Positions 37,245 through 57,991 of a stretch of 64,000 nt of DNA are shown here, one piece after another. The notes under the pieces are model-generated. The model worked only from the letters and a program-made list of their open reading frames with translations. It had not been told where the DNA came from and searched no databases. The position numbers and the translations under genes are program-made. The stretch comes from an uncultured Gemmatimonadaceae bacterium (GTDB taxonomy: Bacteria; Gemmatimonadota; Gemmatimonadetes; Gemmatimonadales; Gemmatimonadaceae): positions 1-64,000 of the forward strand of contig CAVWQI010000003.1 in the NCBI GenBank assembly GCA_963757185.1, written 5' to 3'. Numbering within the stretch: position 1 is the first letter of the stretch; each line of letters opens with the position of its first letter.

Positions 37245-37408
37245 GGAGACGACTCCTCGAGTTGTCGTGTGTCGAACCGGGCGGGCGCGGCGAACGGTCG
37301 GCTCGTCGAGCTCGCAACCCCGTCGCGTCGTAGATTGGGACGACGGTGACCCTTCGGTCAAGAAGGGTACGCCGACTGCCGCGCCGCCTCCCCTCCAGCC
37401 TCGATTTC

Positions 37409-38365
37409 ATGGCCGACACCATTTCGCGGATCGTGATCGCCGGTATCGCCGTCGTCGCCTTCGCGACGAACTCGTTGGCGCAGAGCATTCCGCAGCGGGC
37501 CGTGCTCGTCACGGGAGCGAGCAGCGGCATCGGCCGCAAAGTCACGGAGCGTCTCGCGGCGAACGGCTTCCTCGTCTACGCCGGCGCGCGTGCGCAGAAG
37601 GACCTCGACGACCTCGACGCGATCAAGAACGTGCAGGCGGTGAAGCTCGACGTCACCTCGCCGACCGACATAGCGGCCGCCGTCGCGACGGTCACGAAGG
37701 CCGGCAAGGGACTCTACGGCGTCGTGAACAACGCGGGTGTCGTCGTCGTCGCCCCGCTCATCGAGCTCGAGGAGAAGGACCTCGACTTCATCTTCAACGT
37801 CAACGTGTACGGCCCGTACCGCATCACCAAGGCGTTCGCGCCCCTCTTACTCGAATCGAAGGGACGGGTCGTCAATATCAGCTCGCTCAACGGCATCGTG
37901 GCCAGCCCGATGCTCGGGCCGTACAGCATGAGCAAGCACGCAATCGAGGCGTACGGGGACGGGCTTGCAGCGGAGCTCGGGCGCCTCGGCGTGCGCGTCA
38001 GCCTCATCGAGCCAGGGAACTATGGCACCGAGATCGGAAAGAATCTGCTAGCGCGAATGGACACCAGCGTCGTGAAGGGCTCGCGCTTCGAGGCTCAGCT
38101 GCGGTCGGCGATCAACACGATGCGCGGCTTCGACAACAATCCGCCGCCGGATGAGGTCGCGGACGCCGTGCTCGATGCACTCACGAGCGCGAACCCGAAG
38201 CCGCGTTACATGCCGGTGCCGCAGGCGGGGCAGGGCGCGATCGCGTTGCGAACACTCATGAATGAGATCATACAATTGAATTCGACGCAGAAGTTCACGC
38301 TCGACCGCGACGCGCTCGTGAAGATGCTCGACGACGCGATCGCTCGCGCGACACCGAAGCCCTAG
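37409..38365 (+). CDS. secreted SDR family oxidoreductase
   Basis: The ATG at 37409 gives the signal MADTISRIVIAGIAVVAFATNSLAQ. Motifs TGASSGIGR, NNAG, and the YxxxK pair (YSMSKHA). Confidence 0.8.
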   Translation: MADTISRIVIAGIAVVAFATNSLAQSIPQRAVLVTGASSGIGRKVTERLAANGFLVYAGARAQKDLDDLDAIKNVQAVKLDVTSPTDIAAAVATVTKAGKGLYGVVNNAGVVVVAPLIELEEKDLDFIFNVNVYGPYRITKAFAPLLLESKGRVVNISSLNGIVASPMLGPYSMSKHAIEAYGDGLAAELGRLGVRVSLIEPGNYGTEIGKNLLARMDTSVVKGSRFEAQLRSAINTMRGFDNNPPPDEVADAVLDALTSANPKPRYMPVPQAGQGAIALRTLMNEIIQLNSTQKFTLDRDALVKMLDDAIARATPKP

Positions 38366-41055
38366 TCCTCGCCGAGCATCCCGCCGAGCTTCTCGAGCAC
38401 TTTGCCGAGGTTCGGTTTGTCCTCGAGGACCGGGAGCAGCGGATCGCGCTTCAGACGCTCCATTCGCGCGACAGCGTTCTTGATCGTGAAATCTTTCGGG
38501 TCGAGGTCCTTGTCCACTTCGTCCCAGAGCAGCGGCATCGACACGGTCGCGCCAGGCAGCGGCCGAACGCAGAACGGCGCCACGATCAGTTGGGCGTGTC
38601 GGTTCTGCAGGTAGTCGAGGTACACCTTGTCGCCGCGCTTGCTCACGTGCCGTGTGATCGTCGCGATCGGATCGAGTTCGCGTAGCGCGACGCGCGCGAG
38701 CAGCTCGCCCATCGTCCGACATTGGGCGTACGTGAGCTGCCGGCCGAGCGGAATCATGATGTGGAGACCCGTCTTGCCGGTCGTCTTGATGTAGCTCGGC
38801 AGACCGATGACCTCCGTCAGCGCGCGGAAGACGACGGCGCACTTGATCACGTCCGAGAACGGCGCCTCCTTCGGATCGAGATCGATCACGCACCAATCCG
38901 GCTGCTCCAACGACCCCACTCGGCTGTTCCAGATGTGGATCGGGATCGAGCCGAGATTCGCGACGTAGAGCAAAGACTCGACGTCGTTGGCCACGAAGTA
39001 TCGGATGTCGCGCTGCGTGTCTTCGCTCCAGACCGGTATCGTCTCGATCCACGAGGGGGCGAACTCGGGCGCGTCCTTCTGGTAGAACTGCTTGCCTTCA
39101 ATGCCATCGGGGAATCGCGTCATCACCAGCGGACGGTTGCGCAGATACGGCAGCATCCACGGCGAAATGGCGCGGTAGTAATCGATGAGGTCGCCCTTGG
39201 TGTATTTCTCCTTCGGCCAGTAAACCTTCTTGAGGTTGGAGAAGTTGAACGTCTTCTCGGCCGGCGACGGCTTCGGCGGCGCCGGCGGCTCTTTGACTCG
39301 GGTGGCGGCTGGCATCGTGTCGCTTTCCGGTGCAGGGGTGGTGCCTTGGCGAACGCACTCGCGCGGATCCTTGTCGTAGCGCATCCGCAAGAAGGCGGCG
39401 TGCCGGAGCACGCCGTCAGGCGTCCACTCCCGGAAACGAACCTCGCACACGTTGACCGGCTCGATCCACGTTGTGGTCTTGGTTTCTGGAATCACGGCGG
39501 CGGCTCCATCCGCGCCGACCGGCGGGCCGCACGGCGGCGTCTCGCGGATCATCGACTCGAACATCGATCCGAGCTCATCGAGAAGCGCGTCGTTGAAACC
39601 GGTGCCGACGCGTCCGGAGTAGACGAGCTCTCCGTTCACGAAGTCCGCGAGTTGCAAGGCGCCGAGGTGCGACCGCCCTCCCTTGGGGCTCGTGAAGCCG
39701 ACGATGACGAACTCGTCGCTCTTTTCCGCCTTGATCTTGAGCCAGAGGTCGCTGCGGCCGGCGCGATAGGGAGCGTCGGCGCGCTTCGCCAGAATCCCCT
39801 CGAGCCCCATCTTCTCGACCTGTGCGAGGAACGCCTCGCCTTCGCGGTCGATGTGGTCGAGGGGATGGATCGCGCCAAGCTTGGGCAGCGCGGTCAGGAG
39901 AAGCTCCTTGCGGATCCTGAGCGGCAGCGGCCGGAGATCGAAATCTTCGAACGCGAGAAAGTCGAACGCGAAAAACGTCGCCGGCAGCTCGACCGCGGCG
40001 CGTTTGATCTCCGCCGGATTGTGCAACGTCCCTCGTTTCTGGAGCCTCGCGAAGCTCGGCTTGCCGGCGTCGTCGAGGCACACGACCTCGCCGTCGACGA
40101 TGATCTCGTCGAACGGAAGCGCGTCGAGGGCGCGCGCGACTTCAGGGAAGACGGCCGTATAGTCGTTCCCTTTGCGCGTGACGAGCATCGACTTGCCGTG
40201 CGACTTGCTGGCGATCAAGCGATAGCCGTCGAGCTTTAGCTCGAAGATCCAATCGTCGCGCGTGAACGCCTTCTCGGTCGACTCGGCCAACATCGGCTCG
40301 ACGGTCTTGGGATCGACCCGGTTGTGGGGCGCCTTCACGGCCTCGACGGCCTTGCGCAGATCGGTGACGGGGCTGCGCCCGAGCTTCACTTCGTCGACGG
40401 TCAAGCCGGAGAGAACCGACGTCTCCTCGAACTGGTCGCCGGGCGACTTCACGTACGAGTCGCGCTCCTTGATGAGCAGCCAGTCCTTCTCGCTCTTCTT
40501 CATCTTCACCAGCGTCCAGTTGCCGTGAAGCTTGTAGCCGCGCAGCTCGAAGAGGAGCTTGCCCTTGGCGAGTCCCTCGCGCCAATCCTCGAGCGGGATC
40601 CACTCGCCGCGATCCCACACGATCACGCCGCCCGCGCCGTAGTTGCCCTCGGGAATGACGCCCTCGAAGTCGCCGTATTCGAGCGGGTGATCCTCGACTT
40701 TCACGGCGAGGCGCTTGTCCTTCGTGTCGTAGGACGGCCCTTTCGGCACCGCCCACGAGCGGAGTACCCCGTCCATTTCCAGGCGGAGGTCGAAGTGCAG
40801 CCGGCGGGCGGCATGTTTGTGCACGACGAACAGCCGGCCGGGGACGGCGGACACCATTCCCATCGGCTCGGGGGTCGTGTCCGGCGACCGCTTGGCACGG
40901 TACGCGCTGAGGTTGTCTACCTGGCGCTCGTCGTCGCTACTTGCCGTCACAAAGACATTTCGGTTCGGCGGTGAACCTACGGAGTCACGCGGGGAGCGGC
41001 CAGAACGACGGTCCGGCCCAGGCGTGCTCTTGCGTCGATGCACAATCTCGACCAA
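38362..41055 (-). CDS. ligD: ATP-dependent DNA ligase LigD, three-domain (phosphoesterase-ligase-polymerase)
   Basis: 897 aa with a TTG start. PE domain (TPEP…FVVHKHAARRLHFDLRLEMDGVLRSWAVPKGPS), ligase KxDG motif (FELKLDGYRLIA), and a C-terminal LigD polymerase/primase domain (KVYWPKEKYTKGDLIDYY…). Confidence 0.9.
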   Translation of the reverse strand: MVEIVHRRKSTPGPDRRSGRSPRDSVGSPPNRNVFVTASSDDERQVDNLSAYRAKRSPDTTPEPMGMVSAVPGRLFVVHKHAARRLHFDLRLEMDGVLRSWAVPKGPSYDTKDKRLAVKVEDHPLEYGDFEGVIPEGNYGAGGVIVWDRGEWIPLEDWREGLAKGKLLFELRGYKLHGNWTLVKMKKSEKDWLLIKERDSYVKSPGDQFEETSVLSGLTVDEVKLGRSPVTDLRKAVEAVKAPHNRVDPKTVEPMLAESTEKAFTRDDWIFELKLDGYRLIASKSHGKSMLVTRKGNDYTAVFPEVARALDALPFDEIIVDGEVVCLDDAGKPSFARLQKRGTLHNPAEIKRAAVELPATFFAFDFLAFEDFDLRPLPLRIRKELLLTALPKLGAIHPLDHIDREGEAFLAQVEKMGLEGILAKRADAPYRAGRSDLWLKIKAEKSDEFVIVGFTSPKGGRSHLGALQLADFVNGELVYSGRVGTGFNDALLDELGSMFESMIRETPPCGPPVGADGAAAVIPETKTTTWIEPVNVCEVRFREWTPDGVLRHAAFLRMRYDKDPRECVRQGTTPAPESDTMPAATRVKEPPAPPKPSPAEKTFNFSNLKKVYWPKEKYTKGDLIDYYRAISPWMLPYLRNRPLVMTRFPDGIEGKQFYQKDAPEFAPSWIETIPVWSEDTQRDIRYFVANDVESLLYVANLGSIPIHIWNSRVGSLEQPDWCVIDLDPKEAPFSDVIKCAVVFRALTEVIGLPSYIKTTGKTGLHIMIPLGRQLTYAQCRTMGELLARVALRELDPIATITRHVSKRGDKVYLDYLQNRHAQLIVAPFCVRPLPGATVSMPLLWDEVDKDLDPKDFTIKNAVARMERLKRDPLLPVLEDKPNLGKVLEKLGGMLGED

Positions 41056-41090
41056 CGTCCTCGACCACCCAAGCTCTTTCCCGGATACCT

Positions 41091-41930
41091 ATGCCCGCAC
41101 GCGCAATCGGCACTGCCACCATCTCGTTCGGCCTCGTCTCCGTTCCCGTGAGTCTCTATTCGGCCGCCGAATCGAAGGCCAACATCTCGTTCAACTTGCT
41201 CCACAAGAAGGACGGCGCGCGCCTCAAGCAGCAGTACATCTGCACGAAGGACAACGAGATCGTCACGCGAGACCAGATGGTGAAGGGGTACGAGTTCTCG
41301 AAGGATCAGTACGTCATCCTCACGCCGGAGGAGCTCAAGGCGCTCGAGGAGAAGGCGACGAACACGATCGACATCAGCGAGTTCGTTCCGCTGGCCAAGG
41401 TCGATCGCGAGTACCTCGACAAGACGTACTATCTCGGGCCGGACAAGGGCGGCGATCGTGCCTACCGATTGCTCGTCGCGGCGCTCGAAGAGACCGGCAA
41501 GGCGGCGCTCGGGCAGTATGCGGCGCGCGGTGCGCAGCACCTCGTGCTCCTTCGGCCGCTCAACGGCGTGATGGTGATGGAACAACTCCACTACGCCGAC
41601 GAGCTGCGCCCCACGACCCAGGTCGAGGTTCCGGAGGGAGCGGTGAAGCCCGCGGAGCTCAATCTCGCCAAGCAGCTCATCGAGCAGTCGGCGAGCGACG
41701 ACTTCGTCCCCGAGAAGTACAAGGACACGGTCCGCGAGCGGCAGCTCGAGGCGATCGAAGCGAAGGTCCAGGGTCAGGAGATCACCGAGGAGGCGCCGGC
41801 GGAGCGCGGCGGCAAGATCATCGACCTCATGGAAGCCCTCAAGGCGAGCCTCACCGAGGCGAAGGCGGCGAACAAGGAAGACGAAGAAGAGGAGAAGCCT
41901 CACAAGAAGCGCCGGGCGAAGTCGGCATGA
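41091..41930 (+). CDS. ku: Ku protein (NHEJ DNA end-binding)
   Basis: The ORF runs 40941..41930. An ATG at 41091 gives MPARAIGTATISFGLVSVPVSLYSA, a canonical bacterial Ku N-terminus. The C-terminal tail is Lys/Glu-rich. Confidence 0.9.
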   Translation: MPARAIGTATISFGLVSVPVSLYSAAESKANISFNLLHKKDGARLKQQYICTKDNEIVTRDQMVKGYEFSKDQYVILTPEELKALEEKATNTIDISEFVPLAKVDREYLDKTYYLGPDKGGDRAYRLLVAALEETGKAALGQYAARGAQHLVLLRPLNGVMVMEQLHYADELRPTTQVEVPEGAVKPAELNLAKQLIEQSASDDFVPEKYKDTVRERQLEAIEAKVQGQEITEEAPAERGGKIIDLMEALKASLTEAKAANKEDEEEEKPHKKRRAKSA

Positions 41931-42643
41931 AGCTGCTCGCCGGAACGAGCGGCTTCGCGTTCAAGGAGTGGAAAGGGCCGTTCTACCCGGCTGATCTCAA
42001 AGACGACGCGATGCTCGGCTTCTATGCCGGGCGATTTGCGACCGTCGAGATCAACAACACGTTCTATCGGTTGCCGCGCGAGCACGTCCTGCTGGACTGG
42101 GCGGCGCAGGTGCCGGACTCGTTCACCTTCGCGATCAAGGCCAGCCAGCGCATCACGCACTTCGCGCGGCTCAAACCCGATGCGTCGAGCGCGACGGAGT
42201 TTCTGCTCAAGAACACGTCGGCGCTCGGCGCGCGATTGGGGCCGATTCTCTTCCAGCTTCCGCCGAACCTGAAAATCGACGTCCCGCGACTGCGCGCGTT
42301 CGTCGCCACGCTCCCCAACGATCGCCGGTACACGGTCGAATTTCGGCACGAGAGCTGGTTCGACGACGAGGTCTATGCGGTCCTGCGCGAGCGCGACATT
42401 CCGCTCTGCGTCACCGAGCAGCCGGACTTCGCGTCGCCAATCGTGACCACGGCGAGTTGGGGATACGTGCGGCTGCATCGTCTCGATTACGACGCCCCGC
42501 TGCTCGATGAATGGTGCAGGCGAATCGCGTCGCAACCGTGGAGCGAAGCGTTCGTCTACTTCAAGCACGACGAAGGGATCGGGTCGGGGCCGCCGGCGGT
42601 CGACGCGTTCATCGAATCGTTCGACAAGGCGCCCACCGCGTGA
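41926..42643 (+). CDS. DUF72 (YecE-like) domain protein
   Basis: An ATG at 41926 overlaps the Ku stop (ATGA). Reads MKLLAGTSGFAFKEWKGPFYP…FQLPP…, typical of the DUF72 TIM-barrel family. Confidence 0.8.
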
Positions 42644-42660
42644 AGCGTTAGGGCCCCCCC

Positions 42661-45600
42661 GTGCACGTCCGCGACGGCGAGTTCGCGCTCTACGCGACGG
42701 ATCTCTCGAACTTTCTCGGCTGCCGGCACCGCACGGCGCTCGACATGGGGTTCGCGCTCGGCAAGCGCACTGTCGTCAAATACGAGGACCCGCTGCTCGA
42801 GCTGCTGATTCGACGCGGCCTCGAACACGAGCAGAGATTCGTCGATTCGCTGAGCGCCGGAGCGGCGACCGTCGTGAACGTCCCGCAGGGCGTGCGCGAC
42901 GACGAGCGCGTGGCGACGACTCTCCAGGCGATGCGCCAGGGCGCGGACGTCATCGTCCAAGGCGGCCTTCGCCATGGGGAATGGAACGGCAGACCGGACG
43001 TGATGCTGCGCGTGCCGGCGAGGAGCGGCCTGGGTGACTGGTCGTACGAGGTGTACGACACGAAGCTCGCGCGCGAGACGAAAGCCGGGACGATCCTCCA
43101 GCTTTGCCTCTATTCCGAGCTTCTCGCTTCGGTGCAGGAGGCGAGGCCGGAACATTTCCATGTGATCACTCCGGACTCGGAGACGCCACGGCAGAAATAT
43201 CGCTTCGCCGACTACGCCGCCTACTTCCGACTCGTGCGCCGCCAAATGGGGACGGCGATGTCACTCGGCGACGACCGTCTCGCCGACACGTACTATCCCG
43301 AACCGGTGGACATGTGTGGGGCGTGCCGCTGGAGCTCGACCTGTTCGTCGAAACGCCGAAGCGACGACCACCTGTCGCTCGTTTCCGGGATCTCGCGAGC
43401 GCAGCGGCAGGAGCTGGAGACGCGATCTGTCAGGACCTTGACGCAGCTCGCCGGCTTGCCTGAGGACATCGGGTTCAAGCCGCGTCGCGGTTCGGTCGAG
43501 TCGTACGAGCGAGTTCGCGATCAAGCGCGGCTGCAATTGTCGTCGCGGGATGCGGCCGTGCCGATGTATGAGATGCTCGAGATCGAAGAGGAGTTCGGGC
43601 TCGCGCGGCTCCCCGAGCCGACACCGGGAGACTTGTTCCTCGATCTCGAAGGCGACCCGATGCTGGCCGACCGCGGCCGGGAGTATCTGTTCGGCATCGC
43701 AACGGCCAACGGCGACTACCACGAGCGGTGGGCGTTCACCGACGCCGAGGAGCGCCGCGCGTTCGAGTGGGCGATGGACGTGATCGTCGAACGCATTCGT
43801 GCTCACCCGGACATGCACGTCTACCACTACGCGCCCTACGAGCCGTCGGCGTTCAAGCGCCTCATGGGTCGGTACGCGACGCGGCAGCGAGAGCTCGACG
43901 AGCTGCTGAGGGCGCGCAAATTCGTCGACTTGTACGCCGTCGTCCGCCAGTCCATGCGAGTCGGAATAGAGCGGTATTCGATCAAGAGTCTCGAGCCGCT
44001 ATACGCGTTCACACGCGCCGTGCCGTTGGAGGCGGCGAACAAGAGTCTTCGCGAACTTCAATACGCGCTCGGCGCCGGCGTCCCCGATTCCGTCCCGGAC
44101 GACGTGTGCGCGGCGATCGTCGGTTACAACCGCGACGACTGCGTCTCGACGCGCGCGCTGCGCGACTGGCTCGAGACGTTGCGAGCGCGGGCGATCGCCG
44201 GCGGTGCATCAATCGCGCGGCCGATTCCCGATCCCGCCGGCGCGCCGCCGGACGTCGACGACCGGGCGAAGCGTGTCGAGGAGTTGCGCGGCCGGCTGGT
44301 CGCGGAACTCCCCGAGCTGCGCACCGACCGCGACGACGCTCAGCAAGCGCGCTGGCTCCTCGCCTACATGCTCGACTATCACCGTCGCGAGGACAACGTC
44401 GCCTGGTGGGAATTCTTCCGGCTGGTCGAGATGCCCGAGGAGGATTTGATCGACGAGCGCGCCGCGGTCGCCCGGCTCGAGTTCGTGGAGCGTGTCCGCC
44501 ACATCATGAGCAAGAAAGGCCGGCGCACCGGCTCGGTGATTGATCGGTATCGATATCCCGCGCAGGAAATGGAGATCGAAGCCGGCGACGGCGTTTCCCT
44601 GCAGGACAAGAAGGGATTCGGCAAGGTCGTCGCGGTGGATCGGAAGGCGCGGACGATCGACGTCAAAAAGGGCCCGAGCCGTGCCGAGACGCATCCGACG
44701 GCGATGTTCGAGTTCACGAGCGTCCCCGCCAAGGCGCAGGCGGAGGCCATGCTGCGCATCGGTGACGCGGTTGCCTCCGGTTCAACCGAGTTCGCCGCCG
44801 CGCGCGCGCTGCTCGGCCGCGAACCGCCGCGCTTTCGCGATCCCGCCCTCACGATCGAACGATTCGACCCAGCGAACGATCTCGCGTCGCGACTCGCCGA
44901 CGAGATCGACCAGACGCTCCTCGCGGTTCAAGGTCCGCCCGGCGCCGGCAAGACGTATCTCGCGGCCGAGACGATCTGCCGCCTCGTGCAGCGCGGCAAG
45001 CGCGTCGGCGTGACGGCGACGAGCCACAAGGTGATTCGAAATCTGCTCGACGCCATCGCCGAGGCCGCGAACCGCCTCGGTACGACTGCGTCGCTCGGCC
45101 ACCGCATCGACGATGATGACGTCGACGAGGATGCGCCCGGCGAAGAGCCGGCTCTCAGGCGTTTCGGGAACGCGGAGTCGGCGCGCGAGGCCCTGGCTAA
45201 TCGAGAAGTCTCCGTCGTCGGCGGAACGGCGTGGTTGTGGACGCGTCCCGACCTGACGAACGCCGTCGACGTGCTGTTCGTCGACGAGGCCGGCCAGATG
45301 TCGCTCGCCAACGCGGTCGCCGTGTCGCAGGCCGCGCGCAGTCTCGTGCTGCTCGGCGATCCGCAGCAGCTGGAGCAACCGCGCAAGGGCAGTCACCCCG
45401 ACGGGGTCGACGTATCCGCGCTCGAGCACATTCTCGGCCTCGATCACACGATGCCAAGAGATCGCGGACTCTTTCTCGCGGTCACGCACCGGCTGGCGCC
45501 GAGCATTTGCGACTTCACTTCCGAGGTGTTCTACGACGGCCGACTCCGTCCGCTCACCGGACTGGAGCGGCAGCTGATTTCAGTCTCCGCGGGCGTGCCA

Positions 45601-46101
45601 TCCGTCGGGCTTTCGGTGCTCGATGTCGGGCACGATGGGAATCGCAATCATTCGCCCGAGGAGGTCGAAGCCGTCGCGTCGCTGGTCGAGAAGCTCATCG
45701 CGCCGGGCGCCACGTGGACGGACAAGAAGGGAAACCCGCGACCGCTCGACGGAACTGGCGTGCTGGTGGTCGCGCCGTACAACGCGCACGTCAATCGCCT
45801 GCTCGAGCGACTCGCGGAGATCGACCCGTCCGTGCGCGTCGGAACCGTCGACAAGTTCCAAGGCCAGGAAGCTCCCGTCGTCATTTACTCGATGGCGACG
45901 TCGCGGCCCGAGGACGCGCCGCGAGGGATGGAGTTCCTTTTCAGCTTGAATCGCCTGAACGTCGCGACGTCGCGGGCGCGCTGTCTCGCGGTCCTCGTGG
46001 CCTCGCCGCGCATGTACGAGGCGGAGTGTCGAACGCCACGGCAGATGCAGCTCGCGAACGCGCTCTGCCGGTACCGGGAGATGGCGACGCCTATCGTCTA
46101 G
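42661..46101 (+). CDS. fused RecB-type (TM0106-like) PD-(D/E)xK nuclease / RNase H-like domain / SF1B (Upf1-Dna2-like) DNA helicase
   Basis: 1146 aa with a GTG start 18 nt after the DUF72 stop. The N-terminal nuclease has Cys residues at FLGCRHR and CGACRWSSTC and the motif YEVYDTKLAR. The central part resembles YprB/TM0106 RNase H-like exonuclease. The C-terminal helicase has Walker A GPPGAGKTY, Walker B LFVDEAGQ, LLGDPQQL, VGTVDKFQGQE and LNVATSRAR. Confidence 0.8.
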   Translation: MHVRDGEFALYATDLSNFLGCRHRTALDMGFALGKRTVVKYEDPLLELLIRRGLEHEQRFVDSLSAGAATVVNVPQGVRDDERVATTLQAMRQGADVIVQGGLRHGEWNGRPDVMLRVPARSGLGDWSYEVYDTKLARETKAGTILQLCLYSELLASVQEARPEHFHVITPDSETPRQKYRFADYAAYFRLVRRQMGTAMSLGDDRLADTYYPEPVDMCGACRWSSTCSSKRRSDDHLSLVSGISRAQRQELETRSVRTLTQLAGLPEDIGFKPRRGSVESYERVRDQARLQLSSRDAAVPMYEMLEIEEEFGLARLPEPTPGDLFLDLEGDPMLADRGREYLFGIATANGDYHERWAFTDAEERRAFEWAMDVIVERIRAHPDMHVYHYAPYEPSAFKRLMGRYATRQRELDELLRARKFVDLYAVVRQSMRVGIERYSIKSLEPLYAFTRAVPLEAANKSLRELQYALGAGVPDSVPDDVCAAIVGYNRDDCVSTRALRDWLETLRARAIAGGASIARPIPDPAGAPPDVDDRAKRVEELRGRLVAELPELRTDRDDAQQARWLLAYMLDYHRREDNVAWWEFFRLVEMPEEDLIDERAAVARLEFVERVRHIMSKKGRRTGSVIDRYRYPAQEMEIEAGDGVSLQDKKGFGKVVAVDRKARTIDVKKGPSRAETHPTAMFEFTSVPAKAQAEAMLRIGDAVASGSTEFAAARALLGREPPRFRDPALTIERFDPANDLASRLADEIDQTLLAVQGPPGAGKTYLAAETICRLVQRGKRVGVTATSHKVIRNLLDAIAEAANRLGTTASLGHRIDDDDVDEDAPGEEPALRRFGNAESAREALANREVSVVGGTAWLWTRPDLTNAVDVLFVDEAGQMSLANAVAVSQAARSLVLLGDPQQLEQPRKGSHPDGVDVSALEHILGLDHTMPRDRGLFLAVTHRLAPSICDFTSEVFYDGRLRPLTGLERQLISVSAGVPSVGLSVLDVGHDGNRNHSPEEVEAVASLVEKLIAPGATWTDKKGNPRPLDGTGVLVVAPYNAHVNRLLERLAEIDPSVRVGTVDKFQGQEAPVVIYSMATSRPEDAPRGMEFLFSLNRLNVATSRARCLAVLVASPRMYEAECRTPRQMQLANALCRYREMATPIV

Positions 46102-46129: not shown

Positions 46130-47038
46130 CTACCGCGGGGGTGTCGCTCGCGGGTGAGCCACGAAGAAAGCCCACGCGATCTGCGTCGCATCGAGCGCGT
46201 TGCTCGGTGCGTCGAGGATCCGCGACATGCGCTCCCCGCCGGGCCACGCGTGCCCGCCGCTTTCGATCTTGTACAGCTCGACGGCGGTGCCATCGGCGCA
46301 GGGGGACCACGTGCTATGCGTCACGCCGTCGCGTGAAGAGGTGAGCGCCGCGACGGGGCAACGGTCGAATTTCTTCCAGGAATCGACGGCGAACGACACC
46401 GGACGCACGTCGTGCTTGTCGAGTGCCTTTCTGCCGACGCCGCCGTCGTACGGAAGATTCTCGTCGGCCGTTCCATGGATGATCAGCACCGATACCGGGC
46501 GCGACGGATTGCAGTCCATCGACAGCTCGCCGGAGACGACCGCGATCGCGGCGATCCGGTCGGCGAGCCGGCAGGCCACGAGGTACGACATCATGCCGCC
46601 GTTCGAGAGGCCCGTCGCGTAGATGCGGCTTCGGTCGATCGGGTAGGTGTGCTCCAGCGTGTCGAGAAGCGCGCGAACGAACGCGGCTTCATCGATGTTC
46701 GCCGCCTTCGCGTAGCCGCAGCAACTTCCGGTGTTCCACGTCAGCAGCCGCTCGTTGGTGAACCGCCCGCTGCCGGCCGGATACACGACGATGGCCCCGA
46801 CTTTCGCGCCCAGCGTCGAGAAGCCGCTTTGGGTTCGCGCACCAACCGGCGAACCTCCGCCGCCGTGGAAGTTCAGCACGAGCGGCAACGGGCCGCGCGC
46901 CGCGTAGCGAGGCGGAAGGTCGACCAGATAACTGCGATCGCGTCCGCCGACCTCGAGATGGCGTTCGACGGATGCAACCTGCCCCTCCACGAACGCCCAG
47001 GGCAGGGTGAGAATCAGCGCGACGAGCGCGCGGCTCAT
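46130..47038 (-). CDS. polyhydroxybutyrate depolymerase-like esterase (alpha/beta hydrolase)
   Basis: The ORF runs 46130..47146. The likely start at 47038 gives the signal MSRALVALILTLPWAFVEGQ. It has the GLSNGG nucleophile elbow and PHB-depolymerase (LpqC-like) organisation. Confidence 0.75.
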   Translation of the reverse strand: MSRALVALILTLPWAFVEGQVASVERHLEVGGRDRSYLVDLPPRYAARGPLPLVLNFHGGGGSPVGARTQSGFSTLGAKVGAIVVYPAGSGRFTNERLLTWNTGSCCGYAKAANIDEAAFVRALLDTLEHTYPIDRSRIYATGLSNGGMMSYLVACRLADRIAAIAVVSGELSMDCNPSRPVSVLIIHGTADENLPYDGGVGRKALDKHDVRPVSFAVDSWKKFDRCPVAALTSSRDGVTHSTWSPCADGTAVELYKIESGGHAWPGGERMSRILDAPSNALDATQIAWAFFVAHPRATPPR

Positions 47039-47039
47039 T

Positions 47040-47681
47040 TCACTTGACGATGCGGGCGGTCTTGATCGCGTCGAGCTTTGGGAAAGTCCGGTCGAGATAC
47101 GAGTTCCCGAGATTGCTGATGGACGTCTGATCGGGCGTCTCGCCATAGCCGCTGTACAGCGAATCGACCACCGGCATTCCTTGGACGACCACGCCGATCG
47201 GAGCGAAGCCCGCGCGATCGAGCGGCGCGTTGTCCTTCAAGTTGAAGAACATCTGGTGGCTGCGTGTGTTCGGCACGCTCATCGCGGCGAAAGTCAGCGT
47301 GCCTTTCGCGTTCGTATGCCGAACCGAGTCGTCGGGGATTCGCTTCCCGTCCCACGGGTCGTTCCGCTTCGGATCGCCGTTCAATCCGAACTGTGCGACG
47401 AATCCCGGAACGACGCGAAAGAATTTCTCGCCGTCGAAGAATCGCTGCCCGACGAGCTCGTAGAATCGATCCGCGCCCGCTGGCGCCCACGCGCGGTTCA
47501 CCTGAACGACGAAATTCCCCCGGGTCGTCTCGAACGCGACGCGGAACGAATCCGGCGCCGACCTCCCCGTGTCCACCGCGACCTTCACTGCTGCGGCACT
47601 ATTCCCCGCGGCGGCGCTATTTCCCGCGGCCGGCGCCTTCTCACCGCCGCCGCATGCGACCGCCAGCACGGCCACCGTCAT
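47040..47681 (-). CDS. cyclophilin-type peptidyl-prolyl cis-trans isomerase lipoprotein
   Basis: The ORF runs 47040..47777. The real start is MTVAVLAVACGG at 47681. Cyclophilin motifs (FHRVVPGFVAQFG, KGTLTFAAMS). An 18-bp tandem duplication encodes AAGNSAAAGNSAAA in the linker. Confidence 0.85.
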   Translation of the reverse strand: MTVAVLAVACGGGEKAPAAGNSAAAGNSAAAVKVAVDTGRSAPDSFRVAFETTRGNFVVQVNRAWAPAGADRFYELVGQRFFDGEKFFRVVPGFVAQFGLNGDPKRNDPWDGKRIPDDSVRHTNAKGTLTFAAMSVPNTRSHQMFFNLKDNAPLDRAGFAPIGVVVQGMPVVDSLYSGYGETPDQTSISNLGNSYLDRTFPKLDAIKTARIVK

Positions 47682-47691
47682 CGTCGTTAGT

Positions 47692-47729
47692 CCCGTCCAC
47701 CGGTCCACCGGTCCACCGGTCCACCGTCT
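47692..47729 (-). repeat. (CGGTGGAC)n octamer repeat, about 4.5 units
   Basis: The plus strand reads CCGTCCACCGGTCCACCGGTCCACCGGTCCACCGTC. It ends 10 nt before the cyclophilin ATG (on the minus strand) and abuts the stop codon of the upstream amidohydrolase gene. Confidence 0.9.

Positions 47730-49004: not shown

Positions 49005-49008
<4 letters not shown>
47728..49008 (-). CDS. amidohydrolase family (PF04909-like TIM-barrel metal hydrolase), secreted
   Basis: The ORF runs 47728..49473. The ATG at 49008 overlaps the S9 peptidase stop (ATGA) and begins MTVDRWTGGPADRGHKFRLRGSSFVLASLLLPAMLSAQ. Codons 3-14 are encoded by the octamer repeat. A Gly/Arg-rich tract (GGGRGAGRGGGRG) follows the signal. 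Confidence 0.75.
48969..49005 (-). repeat. (CGGTGGAC)n octamer repeat, about 4.5 units, inside the 5' end of the amidohydrolase CDS
   Basis: The plus strand reads CGCGGTCCGCCGGTCCACCGGTCCACCGGTCCACCGT. Three full units (24 nt) keep the reading frame. Confidence 0.9.
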
Positions 49009-52106
<3,098 letters not shown>

Positions 52107-54371: not shown

Positions 54372-55049
54372 TCACCCGGTTGGCAGGCTCGGTAGCCACG
54401 CGGCTGTCGCTGTACCGACTTCCTCGAGCACCGCCGCGTCGTTCCGCCCGCTCGACTTGAGCACGTGAAAACTGTGATCGGCGCCTTCGAGCCAGTGCAT
54501 TTCCCACCGCGTCGGGACGGACTTCAACACGCGCTCCATCAAGGCGGGCGTGCAGAATGGGTCGCGCGTGCCGCTGAAGCAAAGCACCGGCATCGTGATC
54601 CGCGGGAGGTGAGCGTCGCGAAGTTGCTCGGGCTTTCCCGGCGGGTGAAGCGGATAGGCGAGCAACAGCAGGCCGTCGGCCGCGAATCCGTCCGCCGCCA
54701 GCATCGACGCCGCGCGTCCGCCCATCGATCGTCCGCCGATCACGAGCGGCCGCCGCGGGCCAAGCTCACGCCGAACGTGTTCGACGACTGCCGCGAAAGT
54801 CTGCATCAACTTTGGCATCGGATCCGGCCCGCCCGCCCCGCGCTCCTTGTACAAGAAATTGAATCGCACAACGCCGAGTCCGCGCCGGCGCAACTCGTTG
54901 GCCGCGGCGAGTGTCGCGCGGTCGGACATGCTGCCGCCCGCGCCGTGCGCGCAGATGAACAACGCGCCGGCATCGCCGCTCGTCGCCGGCTCGTACGCGG
55001 CGCTCGTCGTCGCGTCGCCGACCGACACGCGCCACTGGGTAGCCGTCAT
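54372..55049 (-). CDS. alpha/beta hydrolase (KANL3/Tex30-like predicted hydrolase)
   Basis: The ORF runs 54372..55352. The real start is MTATQWRVSV at 55049, overlapping the helicase stop (ATGA). GGRSMGG nucleophile elbow. Confidence 0.7.
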   Translation of the reverse strand: MTATQWRVSVGDATTSAAYEPATSGDAGALFICAHGAGGSMSDRATLAAANELRRRGLGVVRFNFLYKERGAGGPDPMPKLMQTFAAVVEHVRRELGPRRPLVIGGRSMGGRAASMLAADGFAADGLLLLAYPLHPPGKPEQLRDAHLPRITMPVLCFSGTRDPFCTPALMERVLKSVPTRWEMHWLEGADHSFHVLKSSGRNDAAVLEEVGTATAAWLPSLPTG

Positions 55050-57991
55050 GGCATTCCCGCGGCTGCCGGCGTGAGGCCGGCCTCGTCGAGAAACCGATGT
55101 CCGCGCGTCGGCTTGCCCGAACGCGTCACGTCGTGGGTCAACACGAGGCGGTCGCGCACGCGGGTCATCCCGACGTAGAGCAGCCGTCGCGCCTCTTCGA
55201 TTTCGGCCGGCGTCGGTCCGGAGGTGGGCGAGCCGCCAGGGAGCTGTGAGTCTTCGACGCCCACGATGTACACCCGCGAGAACTCGAGTCCCTTCGTCGA
55301 GTGGAGCGTGAGCAGGTTCACCCGCCCGCGCGCGGGATCCACTCCGTCCCACTTCGACAACACCGCGCGCTCGAGGAACGACGAGATCTGTTCTCCGAGT
55401 GGTCGATCGGGAATTTCCGCGATGAGGCGTCGCAGCCGCGCCATCGCGGCCGGGTACCGCTCGTCAGCCGACTTCTCCGCCCGGATCTTGAGCATGAGAC
55501 GCGCGCCGCCGAGCCGCTCGATCACCTCGTCGACGGTCGGGATCGAGAGGTCGCCGGCCTGCTCGCGCTCGTAGCTCTCGAGGCAGGTGCTATAGCGGCC
55601 GAGCGAGAAGGCGCGACAAATCCCGAGGAACATCTGCGCCTCGGGCGAGAGCGATCGGGGATCACTCAGCGCGAGCGCGACGCCGAGTTGGTCGAGAACG
55701 CTCACGAGGGCGGTCTTCCGCGCGCGACAGCTCTTCTCACGGTCCAGCGCGAGCACCACGCTGGCGAGCGTTCGCGAATCGTCGAGTGCCTGGTGCGACC
55801 GTCCCGCGGCGATTCCGAATTGCCGCGCCAGATCGACAAGCTTGCGGCTCGTCGGAAACAGGTCGCGGGCGAGCGGCAGCGTGTCGTACGTGTGCATGCT
55901 GAATCGTTCGTCCGGCCCGATCGCCCGCACCATCCGCTGGAGAATTCGAAAATCGAAGTCGTATCCGTTGTGTGCGACGAGAACGTCTTCACCGCAGAAC
56001 TCGCGGAATCGCGGCCAGATTTCCTCGAAATACGGAGCGTTCGCGACGTCGGCGTCGCTCAAGCCGTGCGTCTGCGTCGCGCCGGGCGCAATCGGGACGC
56101 GCGGCCGGACGACCGCCTCGAAGGTCTCGGCGATCTGTCCGCCCCGCACACGCACCGCGGCGATCTGCACGATTTCGGCCTTCGCCGTGTCGTCGTCGGT
56201 CGTCTCGAGGTCGATCGCCGTGAAATCACCGAACGCCTCGTCCAGCTCGTCCATCTCGAGCAGCTGCGCCGCCTTGAACACGCCGAGCGCCAGCCCGGTC
56301 TCGGCGCACTCGGTAGCCGCGATCACTTCGGCGCCCGCCGACGGCGCGCCGCCCAATTCCACGGCGGTGATCCCGACCGCGCCCAGGATCGCCTTGAGCC
56401 CGATCTCGGCGCCGCCGAAACGAGGGAGCCACACCGTCGCCCGTTCTCGGCGCGCCGCGGCGAGACGATTCTTGAGCGCGACGACGTCGGGAACCGCCGC
56501 CGGATCCGTGATCTCGTCGTGGCGGTCCTCGAGCACCGAGCGGATCTTGCCGACGCGGCGCGACAAGAGATCCAGCACGAGCGGTCCGAGCCCCGAATGT
56601 CGCCTCATGAGCGCGTCGAGGTTGCGCCAGTCGGCGAGTGCTCGGCGAATGCGGCGCCCCGTCTCGTCCTGACGCGGCCGATGCTTCTCGATTCTGCGAA
56701 GCTCCTGCCGCACATCGTGCCGGCTGCGAGCCGCGCGGGCGCGTGCTTCATCGAGCAGTGGCTTTGGCAGCAGCGTCGCGAGAAACTGATCGACGAAGAC
56801 GTCGTTCTTCGGCGCGCTCATCACGCGCAGCGCCGCGATCACGTACGCGACGACGGGATCGTCGGCGAGCGCGCGCCCCAACGCGAGGCGGCAGGGAATG
56901 CCCGCGTTGAGCAGCGCCGCCTCCAGCACGTGTCCGATCTCGTGCGTGCGATAGAGGAGAGCGACGTCGCCCCAGTCGTGGCCATGTTGCGCGCGGTCCC
57001 GTTGCAGATCCGCCACCAGCCACGCGGCTTCCTTGTCGTCGTCGTCGAAGAGCTCGACGCCGACGGGGAACGCCGAGACTCGATCCGCCTTCGGTTCGAC
57101 CGTCTTGACCACGGTGGTCGTGTTGAGCGTCACGAGGCGCCGAGCCAGCTCGAAGACGTCGCGCGGGCAACGGCGGTTTTCCTCGAGGCAGATGCCCGAC
57201 GCGAGCTTGAAGTCGTTCAGGAAGTTTCGGAAGACGGCCGGGTCCGCGCCGGCCCACGAATAGATCGATTGCTCGTCGTCGCCGACGGCGAACACGTGAC
57301 GGTGATCCTTGGCCAGCGCCTTCACGATCCGGTATTGGACCGGATTCAGATCCTGAAATTCGTCGACGAGGACGACGTCCCATCGGGCGCGCACGGCTCG
57401 CCCTTCGTCGTCTCGCTCGAGCAACTCGGCGGCCTTGATGACGAGAGTATCGAAGTCGACGACTTTGCGGGTCGCGAGGAATCGTTCGTAGCGCGCGAAG
57501 AGCACCGTGTCGTCGTGGAGCAGCGCGTCGCCGCGAAAGCGGTGCGCCGAAAACCGATTTAGCGTTCCGCTGTGCCACCGCCGATAGCCCTCGATACGAC
57601 GCAGGACGCTGAGTTGGTACTCCTCGTCGGCGATGCCGAAGCCCGGTTCCAGCAGCACGTGCGCGCCGAGCTCGCGCAGCAACTCGGCGCAAAACGCGTG
57701 AATCGTTCCGCGCTTGATGTGCGCCGCCGCGGCACCGAGCGTGGACTCTAGGCGGTGCGCGATTTCGCCCGCGGCTTTGTTGGTGAAGGTGAAGGCGCAG
57801 ATGCGCGCCGGATCGACGCCCAGCTGCTGCACGAGATGACGGACGCGCTCGATGAGGCAGTACGTCTTGCCGGCGCCGGGTCCGGCGAGGACCAGCAGCG
57901 GTCCCGCCGGAGCCGTGATCGCCGCTCGTTGTGAATCGGACGCCGCCCGCGCCGGCGGTGCGAAACTCTCGCGGGCGGCGGACGTCGTCAC
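55046..57991 (-). CDS. UvrD/PcrA-family SF1A helicase with internal DnaQ-like DEDDh 3'-5' exonuclease domain
   Basis: 981 aa. The N-terminus has Walker A LVLAGPGAGKTY, then AFTFTNKAAGE and VLVDEFQDLN. The exonuclease motifs are FTAIDLETTDDD (Exo I), AHNGYDFDFRIL (Exo II) and HQALDDSRT (Exo III). The C-terminus has UvrD_C motifs (LLTLHSTKGLEF, LLYVGMTRVRDRL). Confidence 0.85.
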   Translation of the reverse strand: MTTSAARESFAPPARAASDSQRAAITAPAGPLLVLAGPGAGKTYCLIERVRHLVQQLGVDPARICAFTFTNKAAGEIAHRLESTLGAAAAHIKRGTIHAFCAELLRELGAHVLLEPGFGIADEEYQLSVLRRIEGYRRWHSGTLNRFSAHRFRGDALLHDDTVLFARYERFLATRKVVDFDTLVIKAAELLERDDEGRAVRARWDVVLVDEFQDLNPVQYRIVKALAKDHRHVFAVGDDEQSIYSWAGADPAVFRNFLNDFKLASGICLEENRRCPRDVFELARRLVTLNTTTVVKTVEPKADRVSAFPVGVELFDDDDKEAAWLVADLQRDRAQHGHDWGDVALLYRTHEIGHVLEAALLNAGIPCRLALGRALADDPVVAYVIAALRVMSAPKNDVFVDQFLATLLPKPLLDEARARAARSRHDVRQELRRIEKHRPRQDETGRRIRRALADWRNLDALMRRHSGLGPLVLDLLSRRVGKIRSVLEDRHDEITDPAAVPDVVALKNRLAAARRERATVWLPRFGGAEIGLKAILGAVGITAVELGGAPSAGAEVIAATECAETGLALGVFKAAQLLEMDELDEAFGDFTAIDLETTDDDTAKAEIVQIAAVRVRGGQIAETFEAVVRPRVPIAPGATQTHGLSDADVANAPYFEEIWPRFREFCGEDVLVAHNGYDFDFRILQRMVRAIGPDERFSMHTYDTLPLARDLFPTSRKLVDLARQFGIAAGRSHQALDDSRTLASVVLALDREKSCRARKTALVSVLDQLGVALALSDPRSLSPEAQMFLGICRAFSLGRYSTCLESYEREQAGDLSIPTVDEVIERLGGARLMLKIRAEKSADERYPAAMARLRRLIAEIPDRPLGEQISSFLERAVLSKWDGVDPARGRVNLLTLHSTKGLEFSRVYIVGVEDSQLPGGSPTSGPTPAEIEEARRLLYVGMTRVRDRLVLTHDVTRSGKPTRGHRFLDEAGLTPAAAGMP

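What the first reader, a model, noticed from the sequence alone, without database searches (positions are those of the whole stretch)
38362..46101. NHEJ locus in which Ku is co-operonic with a DUF72 protein and a 1146-aa nuclease-helicase
LigD sits on the minus strand, divergent from a plus-strand operon Ku -> DUF72 -> nuclease/helicase. LigD has the phosphoesterase-ligase-polymerase domain order. Ku's stop overlaps the DUF72 start as ATGA. The DUF72 stop is 18 nt before the helicase's GTG start, so the three genes are almost certainly co-translated. Ku plus LigD is the established bacterial NHEJ core. A YecE-like DUF72 TIM-barrel and a Dna2-like nuclease-helicase inside the Ku operon are not part of that described core. 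This suggests a dedicated end-resection or end-cleaning module feeding NHEJ. It is a plausible previously undescribed accessory NHEJ system.
Basis: partly seen in the sequence, partly recalled or inferred. Interest (0 to 1): 0.72.

Follow-up and report, generated by a model that had tools for sequence, protein, structure and literature searches.

The report
Ku operon with conserved DUF72 partner
This is a real bacterial end-joining (Ku/LigD) DNA-repair locus in which Ku is paired with a protein of unknown function (DUF72); that pairing recurs across several phyla and is apparently undescribed, whereas the large nuclease-helicase behind it is only an occasional add-on.

Summary
The anatomy is confirmed. 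LigD (phosphoesterase-ligase-polymerase order) lies on the minus strand. It diverges from a plus-strand run of Ku, DUF72 (ATGA overlap with Ku) and a 1146-aa nuclease-helicase after a 17-nt gap. The organism is a Gemmatimonadaceae bacterium.

The two "extra" genes behave differently.
- **DUF72:** among its 80 closest loci in species-representative genomes, 52 carry Ku and/or LigD within 10 kb. That is 52 of 67 loci with enough flank. Ku is directly adjacent in 36. At least seven gene orders occur, in Gemmatimonadota, Acidobacteriota, Verrucomicrobiota, Planctomycetota, Myxococcota and Betaproteobacteria. A second, divergent DUF72 subfamily sits next to Ku in Bradyrhizobium.
- **DNA link for DUF72:** some close relatives are fused to the DNA-binding helix-hairpin-helix domains of family X polymerases. 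No searchable paper mentions DUF72 together with NHEJ.
- **Helicase (TM0106/COG2251 family):** all catalytic motifs are intact, but it follows DUF72 only in a Gemmatimonadaceae sublineage. Its relatives are solo genes, some in defence islands.

Best reading: DUF72 is a conserved NHEJ accessory, probably a lesion- or end-cleaning enzyme. The helicase is a lineage-specific recruit or an insertion. All functions are inferred.

The parts
38362..40950 (-). LigD, multidomain NHEJ ligase (3'-phosphoesterase, ATP-dependent ligase, primase-polymerase)
   Evidence: Pfam LigD_N, DNA_ligase_A_M/_C and LigD_Prim-Pol in that order; TIGR02776, 02777, 02778 and 02779 above cut-off. Start is GTG 40950, inferred from sequence and the conserved VTASS N-terminus.
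40951..41090 (.). Divergent LigD/Ku intergenic region (140 nt), presumed bidirectional promoter/regulatory region
   Evidence: Read directly. CTCTTGCGTCGATGCAC...TCGACCAACGTCCTCGACCAC is shared with the closest relatives L001, L009 and L098. No sigma-70-like match. Function not tested.
41091..41930 (+). Ku (279 aa) with a lysine-rich C-terminal tail
   Evidence: PF02735 E 6e-51; TIGR02772 284 bits.
41927..42643 (+). DUF72 TIM-barrel protein (238 aa); start overlaps the Ku stop (ATGA)
42661..46101 (+). TM0106/COG2251-family nuclease-exonuclease-helicase (1146 aa)
   Evidence: TIGR03491, PF13482, AAA_11/AAA_12. Catalytic motifs are invariant down to 32% identity.
42661..43380 (+). Domain: Cas4/RecB-like PD-(D/E)XK nuclease with a four-Cys (Fe-S type) signature
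   Evidence: Invariant C21, D113, E130, K135, Q147, Y151, C219, C222 and C228.
43633..44172 (+). Domain: RNase H-like (PolB-exonuclease-like) predicted 3'-5' exonuclease
   Evidence: PF13482 at residues 325-504. Invariant D328, E330, E394, D423, Y489, N490, D492 and D493. The family is predicted to be a 3'-5' exonuclease in PMC3985635.
44893..46020 (+). Domain: SF1B (Upf1/Dna2-like) helicase core
   Evidence: Walker A GPPGAGKT, DEAGQ, GDPQQL and motifs V/VI are invariant. PDB hits are IGHMBP2, Upf1, Sen1 and DNA2.
54372..57991 (-). Abhydrolase_11 gene plus UvrD-type helicase with an inserted RNase T exonuclease. These lie directly beside DUF72 in many relatives and 8 kb away here.
   Evidence: Pfam; positions in related loci. 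Membership in the system is uncertain.

Best explanation
This is a canonical two-component NHEJ locus (divergent LigD and Ku) of a Gemmatimonadaceae bacterium with one conserved and one variable extra gene.

Conserved extra gene: DUF72. It is translationally coupled to Ku, and in this protein clade it is habitually encoded beside Ku and/or LigD in several phyla. I infer that DUF72 is an enzyme acting on DNA. It has a xylose-isomerase-like TIM barrel, the fold group that includes endonuclease IV. It probably uses a metal-dependent active site on the C-terminal face of the barrel. Its likely role is to remove lesions that block joining at Ku-held breaks, before LigD fills in and seals. Candidate lesions are abasic sites or damaged sugars near the end, 3'-blocking groups, or ribonucleotide-containing intermediates.

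Variable extra gene: the 1146-aa protein. It combines a Cas4-like Fe-S nuclease, a DEDD-type exonuclease and an SF1B helicase. It looks catalytically intact. It entered the slot downstream of DUF72 only in a sublineage. There it most likely trims or resects ends or flaps in a Dna2/Bad-like manner and is co-expressed with Ku. This second part is much less certain.

Shown: gene identities, junctions, conservation statistics, fusions and fold. Inferred: every biochemical activity, co-transcription, and any physical interaction with Ku.
For: - Identities and junctions.
- Gemmatimonadota contexts repeat LigD(-)|Ku->DUF72 with a 4-nt overlap.
- Of the 80 closest DUF72 loci in species-representative genomes, Ku is directly adjacent on the same strand in 36. 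A Ku or LigD gene lies within 1 kb in 7 more and within 10 kb in 9 more. Fifteen have none despite at least 5 kb on both flanks, and 13 are uninformative.
- Outside Gemmatimonadota, 15 loci have NHEJ genes and 9 informative loci do not. Orders include DUF72->Ku, LigD->DUF72 and DUF72|Abh11-LigD|Ku. Pfam confirmed the most divergent cases, where Ku is only 33-36% identical while DUF72 is 54-56% identical.
- Internal control: 0 of 78 helicase-family loci (0.71 Mb) carry Ku or LigD.
- A second DUF72 subfamily, 26% identical, sits next to Ku on two Bradyrhizobium plasmids and on Bradyrhizobium chromosomes.
- Close DUF72 relatives are fused to HHH_8+HHH_5, the family X polymerase DNA-binding domains.
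- Near-invariant polar residues E41, N43, K71, H78, Q110, E138, R182 and H214 lie at or just after the ends of barrel strands.
- Literature: Tm1631 was predicted to bind DNA like endonuclease IV (PMC3828134). DUF72 is enriched near PolB2 translesion operons (PMC11791011).
- Helicase: motifs intact. It follows DUF72 at 13-23 nt in the window, L005, L009 and L010-12, and at a short distance in L098 and L099. These belong to two subgroups only about 62% identical to each other.
- A FEN-type 5'-3' exonuclease follows the helicase in L005 and follows DUF72 directly in L026.
Against: - No biochemical data exist for any DUF72 protein.
- The fold match is to the whole xylose-isomerase-like group; sugar isomerases and epimerases score as high as endonuclease IV. 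There is no Pfam AP_endonuc_2 hit.
- DUF72 is a very large family (13,482 clusters) and most of it is not Ku-linked. Only 3 of 718 Ku-bearing plasmid records have an adjacent DUF72. Three of four sampled relatives of the Bradyrhizobium subfamily lack Ku. E. coli YecE belongs to this family and E. coli has no Ku (my own knowledge).
- The 80 loci are the nearest relatives of a Ku-linked query and are not phylogenetically independent.
- Helicase: it is present after DUF72 in 1 of 34 informative Ku-DUF72 genome loci. Its relatives sit between CBASS and BREX or among other defence-type genes. A defence-island copy is as close to one operon-linked subgroup (63-64%) as the two operon-linked subgroups are to each other.
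Confidence: 0.55

Rival explanations
1. The helicase-nuclease has nothing to do with NHEJ. It is a mobile, solo anti-phage or anti-plasmid nuclease-helicase. It landed in a variable slot downstream of Ku-DUF72 and is carried along on the operon's transcript.
For: The family has no conserved neighbour. Seventy-eight of 80 metagenome loci lack NHEJ genes. Homologues lie between CBASS/HEC-07 and BREX (L013/14) and among PLD, NOV_C, DUF2130 and AAA_23 genes (L015/16). The related Bad enzyme neighbours a type III-like methyltransferase (PMC7430649). The slot after DUF72 is variable: close relatives L001 and L002 lack the helicase. A defence-island copy is as close to one operon-linked subgroup as the two linked subgroups are to each other.
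Against: The position immediately after DUF72 with 13-23 nt spacers is the same in two subgroups only about 62% identical to each other. There is no composition anomaly. No tRNA or known RNA element was detected nearby. There is no full-length match to any PADLOC system protein. A FEN-type nuclease joins the same operon in L005.
Confidence: 0.35
2. DUF72 is linked to NHEJ but is not an end-cleaning nuclease. It might act on the ribonucleotides that the LigD polymerase prefers to add (ribonucleotide removal or sensing), on a sugar-phosphate or nucleotide metabolite, or as a non-catalytic DNA-binding partner.
For: The fold group is dominated by sugar isomerases and epimerases. There is no sequence match to AP_endonuc_2. 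A ribonuclease HII gene lies near the Bradyrhizobium plasmid locus L007. A conserved alpha/beta hydrolase (Abhydrolase_11) is often paired with DUF72, which hints at different chemistry.
Against: Fusions to the family X polymerase helix-hairpin-helix domains argue for direct action on DNA. Association with translesion-polymerase operons points the same way. Conserved polar residues at the barrel's catalytic face argue for an enzyme.
Confidence: 0.2
3. The Ku-DUF72 adjacency is inherited synteny or a hitch-hiking cassette with no functional coupling.
For: Most of the linked loci are Gemmatimonadota and share the same order. The sample consists of the query's nearest relatives.
Against: At least seven different arrangements occur in six or more phyla, with Ku diverged to 33-36% identity. 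A separate DUF72 subfamily is also Ku-adjacent. The 4-nt start/stop overlap is maintained. The control loci give 0 of 78.
Confidence: 0.07

Closest known systems
Bacterial two-component NHEJ (Ku + LigD; Mycobacterium, Pseudomonas, Bacillus)
   Same: Ku homodimer-type protein and a LigD with phosphoesterase, ligase and polymerase domains, encoded side by side. This is the established core.
   Different: Reviews describe LigD as the sole end processor, plus the AP-lyase activity of Ku (PMC8656161). A comparative survey examined only Ku-LigD proximity. Here a DUF72 gene is coupled to Ku and conserved across phyla. It is absent from the model organisms' loci and from 715 of 718 Ku-bearing plasmids.
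Endonuclease IV / AP endonuclease family 2 (xylose-isomerase-like TIM barrel)
   Different: No sequence-level membership (no AP_endonuc_2 hit). The trinuclear metal site was not verified. Sugar isomerases score equally well. Activity is untested.
Eukaryotic Dna2 and Geobacillus Bad (DNA2-like helicase-nuclease)
   Same: N-terminal Fe-S PD-(D/E)XK nuclease plus C-terminal SF1B 5'-3' helicase. The helicase domain hits DNA2 (5eaw, E 6e-9). Bad has no known physiological role and sits in a defence-like neighbourhood.
   Different: An extra RNase H-like exonuclease domain lies between nuclease and helicase. The protein belongs to TIGR03491/COG2251.
COG2251 / TM0106 family RecB-like nuclease (uncharacterised)
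   Same: Full-length match to TIGR03491. The combination DUF83-like nuclease + PF13482 + tandem AAA domains was noted computationally in PMC3985635.
   Different: Nothing is known of its function. Placement in a Ku operon has not been reported in the searchable literature.
Proposed mycobacterial NHEJ partners (UvrD1, Sir2)
   Same: Precedent for helicases and other proteins assisting Ku. Sir2 is documented in PMC3102665 (listed). UvrD1-Ku is from my own knowledge.
   Different: Those partners are not encoded in the Ku operon and are unrelated in sequence to DUF72 or to the TM0106 helicase. A UvrD-RNase T fusion does lie near this locus, but its link is unproven.

Membership tests
Bacterial NHEJ core (Ku + LigD) | Ku homologue of the bacterial type | tested here: met
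   TIGR02772 equivalog 283.8 bits against a cut-off of 150; PF02735.
Bacterial NHEJ core (Ku + LigD) | LigD with ligase, polymerase and phosphoesterase modules | tested here: met
   TIGR02776, 02777, 02778 and 02779 all above cut-off; Pfam order is PE-Lig-Pol.
Bacterial NHEJ core (Ku + LigD) | End-joining activity in vivo or in vitro | not testable with these tools
   Requires genetics or biochemistry.
DUF72 (PF01904, YecE/TM1631-like) | Profile match above the gathering score | tested here: met
   195 bits against a cut-off of 25.3.
DUF72 (PF01904, YecE/TM1631-like) | TM1631-like TIM barrel fold | tested here: met
Endonuclease IV / AP_endonuc_2 | Sequence membership (Pfam AP_endonuc_2) | tested here: not met
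   No such hit at E <= 0.01.
Endonuclease IV / AP_endonuc_2 | Xylose-isomerase-like TIM barrel fold | tested here: met
Endonuclease IV / AP_endonuc_2 | Trinuclear metal site and AP-endonuclease/3'-diesterase activity | not tested
   Only conservation of E41, H78, E138 and H214 was seen. No residue-level superposition or assay.
TM0106 / COG2251 nuclease family (TIGR03491) | Profile match above cut-off covering the Cas4-like and RNase H-like parts | tested here: met
   252.5 bits against a cut-off of 97.45, profile positions 3-462 of 462.
TM0106 / COG2251 nuclease family (TIGR03491) | PD-(D/E)XK catalytic residues and four cluster cysteines | tested here: met
   Invariant D113, E130, K135, Q147 and Y151; C21, C219, C222 and C228. 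Fe-S binding itself is not testable here.
Dna2/Bad-like nuclease-helicase | Fe-S nuclease N-terminal to an SF1B helicase in one polypeptide | tested here: met
Dna2/Bad-like nuclease-helicase | Orthology to Dna2 or Bad over the full length | tested here: inconclusive
   Only the C-terminal helicase part aligns to DNA2 (residues 998-1115). An extra exonuclease domain is present.
Known anti-phage defence systems (PADLOC) | Full-length match to a system component and presence of its partner genes | tested here: not met
   Only helicase-domain matches to MkoA, MkoC and DpdJ. DUF72 and Ku gave no hits.

The most novel reading that the evidence does not exclude
DUF72 is an unrecognised third component of bacterial NHEJ in a broad set of mostly soil phyla. 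It would be a Ku-coupled, endonuclease IV-like lesion- or end-cleaning enzyme. That would give the first physiological role to a structural-genomics family of more than 13,000 sequence clusters and would show that bacterial NHEJ is not always a two-protein machine. In a Gemmatimonadaceae sublineage the operon is further extended by a Dna2-like triple-activity nuclease-helicase, and sometimes a FEN-type nuclease, forming a eukaryote-like multi-nuclease end-processing set.
Probability: 0.35. Interest if true: 0.8.

Novelty: new variant of a known kind. Interest (0 to 1): 0.66.

Why it matters
- Bacterial NHEJ is taught as a minimal Ku + LigD machine. Dedicated accessory enzymes encoded with Ku would change that picture for several large, poorly cultured phyla.
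- DUF72 has had crystal structures since 2004 but no function. A reproducible genomic link to Ku/LigD, plus fusions to polymerase-X DNA-binding domains, turns "unknown" into a specific hypothesis.
- That hypothesis can be tested in tractable hosts: Bradyrhizobium carries a chromosomal Ku->DUF72 pair, and Gemmatirosa kalamazoonensis is cultured.
- The helicase result is a caution. Operon position alone overstated its link to NHEJ.

Tried and rejected
- A 37-sequence DUF72 alignment that included the Bradyrhizobium subfamily was too diverse for the locus scan. It was replaced by a 13-sequence alignment.
- I looked for HhH-DUF72 fusions among the fetched loci and found none, so the fusions have no genomic context here.
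- The promoter/terminator scan was uninformative; counts equalled chance.
- K-mer search for a shared regulatory motif in 32 LigD-Ku intergenic regions gave only weak, partly coding signals. I did not pursue it.
- The Rfam and tRNA scans were empty.
- Two "conserved neighbour" ORF clusters (197 aa and 273 aa, no Pfam hit) were rejected. They are opposite-strand shadows of the Abhydrolase_11 and MerR-TPR genes.
- The 518-aa "Ku-DUF72 fusion" in L009 was rejected as a probable frameshift artefact, because LigD is split into three pieces on the same contig.
- PADLOC gave no system-level assignment.
Full report
**1. What is there**

The window has about 65% G+C. The closest homologues of its proteins come from Gemmatimonadaceae metagenome-assembled genomes. 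The cultured Gemmatirosa kalamazoonensis matches the joined Ku + DUF72 query at 71% identity.

- **LigD.** On the minus strand an ORF ending at 38362 encodes LigD. Pfam finds the 3'-phosphoesterase, ligase and primase-polymerase domains in that order. The NCBIfam LigD domain models are above cut-off. The first possible start (TTG 41055) is not the real one. The codon at 40920 is GTA. GTG at 40950 gives the N-terminus VTASS..., which is conserved in relatives.
- **Ku.** After a 140-nt divergent spacer, Ku starts at ATG 41091 and ends at 41930.
- **DUF72.** It starts at ATG 41927, so the two genes overlap as ATGA. It ends at 42643.
- **Large protein.** After 17 nt, a GTG at 42661 opens a 1146-aa ORF ending at 46101. 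Homologues start at the equivalent position.

**2. The large protein**

It matches TIGR03491 (TM0106 family RecB-like nuclease) over residues 12-504. It matches PF13482 (RNase H-like) at 325-504. It matches the SF1B helicase families AAA_11/AAA_12 at about 750-1115. I aligned it with relatives down to 32% identity. These residues are invariant:

- the PD-(D/E)XK residues D113, E130, K135, Q147 and Y151;
- four cysteines in the Cas4/AddB/Dna2 pattern (C21, C219-x2-C222-x5-C228);
- DEDD-like exonuclease residues D328, E330, E394, D423, Y489, N490, D492 and D493;
- all SF1 helicase motifs.

Solved structures match only the helicase part: IGHMBP2, Upf1, Sen1 and DNA2. The architecture was noted computationally as COG2251 and is uncharacterised (PMC3985635). 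The nearest characterised analogue is Geobacillus Bad. Bad is a DNA2-like Fe-S nuclease-helicase of unknown role that sits next to a type III-like methyltransferase (PMC7430649).

**3. Is DUF72 linked to Ku beyond this window?**

*Within Gemmatimonadota.* Every long contig I examined repeats LigD(-)|Ku->DUF72 with the 4-nt overlap.

*Plasmids.* I ran tblastn with Ku and DUF72 joined end to end against 72,556 plasmids, so that records with both genes adjacent rank first. Three records emerged:

- the Gemmatirosa megaplasmid;
- Bradyrhizobium japonicum pS11L-1, with LigD(-)|Ku->ligase->DUF72;
- Bradyrhizobium sp. 195, with Ku->DUF72 and with LigD and a 3'-5' exonuclease a few kb away.

*Species-representative genomes.* I scanned with a DUF72 alignment. 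This returned the 80 best of 592 confirmed loci, at 77% down to 50% identity. I searched them with the window's Ku, LigD, helicase and a FEN-type nuclease.

| Class of DUF72 locus | Loci |
|---|---|
| Ku directly adjacent, same strand | 36 |
| Ku or LigD within 1 kb | 7 |
| Ku or LigD within 10 kb | 9 |
| None, with at least 5 kb on both flanks | 15 |
| Too short to tell | 13 |

That is 52 of 67 informative loci. Outside Gemmatimonadota, 15 loci have NHEJ genes and 9 informative loci do not. The linked ones come from Acidobacteriota (including Thermoanaerobaculia), Verrucomicrobiota, Gemmataceae, Myxococcota and Betaproteobacteria.

Gene orders differ between lineages:

- Ku->DUF72;
- DUF72->Ku->MerR-TPR;
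- DUF72> <Abhydrolase_11 <LigD Ku>;
- Ku< LigD>DUF72>;
- and others.

In the most distant cases Ku is only 33-36% identical to the window's Ku while DUF72 is 54-56% identical. Pfam confirms both calls.

*Control.* The 78 helicase-family metagenome loci that are not the operon type (0.71 Mb) contain no Ku or LigD. The Fisher p of 1.6e-21 ignores relatedness.

*Second subfamily.* The Bradyrhizobium DUF72 proteins are only 26% identical to the window's. RefSeq truncates their N-termini. Their subfamily is Ku-adjacent on Bradyrhizobium chromosomes (a cluster of 119 sequences). It is not Ku-adjacent in three more distant relatives.

*Limits.* The linkage is real and recurrent but lineage-restricted. 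DUF72 is a huge family (13,482 clusters at E <= 1e-3). Among 718 Ku-bearing plasmids, mostly Streptomyces, rhizobia and Burkholderiaceae, only 3 have an adjacent DUF72. That probably explains why it has not been noticed. No paper in the searchable corpus contains both DUF72 and NHEJ. A comparative NHEJ survey examined only Ku-LigD proximity.

**4. What might DUF72 do?**

- *Active site.* The near-invariant polar residues E41, N43, K71, H78, Q110, E138, R182 and H214 sit at or just after the C-terminal ends of barrel strands. That position is expected for an active enzyme.
- *Fusions.* Four close cluster representatives (43-50% identical) carry N-terminal HHH_8 + HHH_5 domains fused to DUF72. 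These are the 8-kDa and helix-hairpin-helix DNA-binding modules of family X polymerases. This is domain-fusion evidence for action on gapped or broken DNA.
- *Literature.* Two modelling papers propose that Tm1631 is an endonuclease IV-like DNA enzyme. A 2025 study notes DUF72 enrichment next to PolB2 translesion operons.

Together with the Ku/LigD context, the most likely role is cleaning of damaged termini or nearby abasic or sugar lesions at Ku-bound breaks. This would complement Ku's AP-lyase activity and LigD's phosphoesterase. It is inference, and I put it near 50%. Alternatives include processing the ribonucleotides that LigD adds.

**5. Is the helicase part of the system?**

In the genome sample it follows DUF72 in one locus (L018) out of 34 Ku-DUF72 loci with at least 1.5 kb downstream. 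A metagenome scan with the helicase gave 80 loci at 32-92% identity. Only the two closest (81% and 92%) carry Ku, DUF72 and LigD. Clustering of flanking ORFs found no conserved partner other than the NHEJ genes in six Gemmatimonadota loci.

| Helicase homologue (identity to window) | Locus | Context |
|---|---|---|
| 86% | L009 | Syntenic with the window |
| 62% | L010-12, L005 | Follows DUF72 at 13-14 nt; FEN-type nuclease follows (L005) or lies 1.3 kb away (L010-12) |
| 57%; 58% in the A4 alignment | L013/14 (Vicinamibacterales) | Between a CBASS operon with a HEC-07-like gene and a BREX operon |
| 57%; 58% in the A4 alignment | L015/16 (Gemmatimonadaceae) | Among PLD, NOV_C, DUF2130 and AAA_23 genes |

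Matching contig lengths between the two homologue tables suggest at least six more DUF72-helicase pairs in metagenomes (inference).

Pairwise identities show that the defence-island copy is as close to the 62% operon-linked subgroup (63-64%) as that subgroup is to the window's (61-62%). The helicase is therefore either a repeated recruit to this slot or a mobile gene that tends to land there. Close relatives of the window, L001 and L002, lack it. Intact motifs and tight spacing favour co-expression with Ku. A dedicated NHEJ role is possible but unproven. I weight it about equally with a defence or solo role.

**6. Comparison with known systems, and novelty**

The core is ordinary bacterial NHEJ. 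The DUF72 coupling is a new, conserved variant of that system. It is not mentioned in any paper of the searchable corpus, and the LigD review and the NHEJ survey I opened do not discuss it. The helicase belongs to a known but uncharacterised family and resembles Dna2/Bad in architecture, with an extra exonuclease domain. I rate the whole as a new variant of a known kind.

**7. Caveats**

- The 80 genome loci are nearest relatives of a Ku-linked query and are not independent.
- Ku and LigD were detected by tblastn with single queries, which is conservative for distant homologues.
- There is no expression or biochemical evidence.
- The fold search cannot separate nuclease from isomerase chemistry.

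Noticed in passing
window 54372-55352 (-) and 55046-57991 (-): An Abhydrolase_11 (PF20408) gene and a UvrD-type helicase with an inserted RNase T exonuclease domain. In about 18-27 related loci these two lie directly next to DUF72 (e.g. L020, L023, L030, L031). Abhydrolase_11 is also paired with DUF72 in Verrucomicrobia, Betaproteobacteria and Myxococcota. Here they are separated from the operon by about 8 kb.
   Followed up: partly
L054, L056, L058, L061, L066, L073, L083, L084, L090, L093 (e.g. L093 5092-5940): A MerR-HTH + TPR protein of about 280 aa is encoded immediately after Ku in the Acidobacteriota/Myxococcota-type NHEJ-DUF72 loci. It is a candidate regulator. It is absent from the window.
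   Followed up: partly
P0291, P0308, P0360, P0366 (cluster representatives; no genomic context): DUF72 is fused to N-terminal HHH_8 + HHH_5 domains, the family X polymerase 8-kDa and helix-hairpin-helix modules. P0291 also has about 200 extra N-terminal residues that look hydrophobic.
   Followed up: partly
L005 13169-13990; L026 10730-11560; L010 12746-13588: A FEN-type 5'-3' exonuclease (PF02739+PF01367) follows the helicase (L005, overlapping its stop), follows DUF72 directly (L026), or lies 1.3 kb away (L010-12). The slot downstream of DUF72 collects nucleases.
   Followed up: partly
L013 6120-9560 and L014 4932-8372: A 57%-identical homologue of the helicase lies between a CBASS operon (SMODS, E2, SAVED, plus a 553-aa protein matching PADLOC HEC-07 full length) and a BREX operon in a Vicinamibacterales MAG.
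   Followed up: partly
L007 9940-10662; L008 8992-9702: The RefSeq annotations of the Bradyrhizobium plasmid DUF72 genes start too late. The in-frame upstream sequence encodes the conserved N-terminal 'GTAGWNVP' strand motif.
   Followed up: yes
L009 3663-7977: On this long contig Ku and DUF72 are called as a single 518-aa product and LigD as three fragments. These are most likely frameshift errors of a long-read assembly rather than a true fusion.
   Followed up: no
window 40951-41090 and the equivalent spacers of L001-L052: The LigD-Ku spacer carries sequence shared with close relatives: CTCTTGCGTCGATGCAC...TCGACCAACGTCCTCGACCAC, with three TCGA-containing repeats about 12 nt apart. Other Gemmatimonadaceae share GTGGAAA-N4-5-TGTCGAWAAC or TTTCCACG...AAATATTTGTGA. 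These are possible regulator sites.
   Followed up: partly
L002 11623-12795: A 390-aa protein with HHH_8 and PHP domains, like a family X polymerase without its catalytic core, lies two genes downstream of Ku-DUF72 in one Gemmatimonadota genome.
   Followed up: no
window 35277-37361, 46130-47146, 47728-49473, 49005-52106, 52221-54143: The NHEJ operon is embedded in a run of hydrolase genes: PepX S15 peptidase, esterase, amidohydrolase_2, S9 peptidase and amidase. This run is syntenic in L009 and partly in L001, and appears unrelated to repair.
   Followed up: no
L178/L179 10932-13954: In Bradyrhizobium chromosomes the Ku->DUF72 pair lies about 3 kb from an HTH_3/Peptidase_M78 gene (the domain pair of ImmA/IrrE-type proteins, from my own knowledge), a Vsr endonuclease, an Eco29kI-type restriction enzyme and a ligase fragment. 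This suggests a mobile or defence-rich neighbourhood.
   Followed up: no
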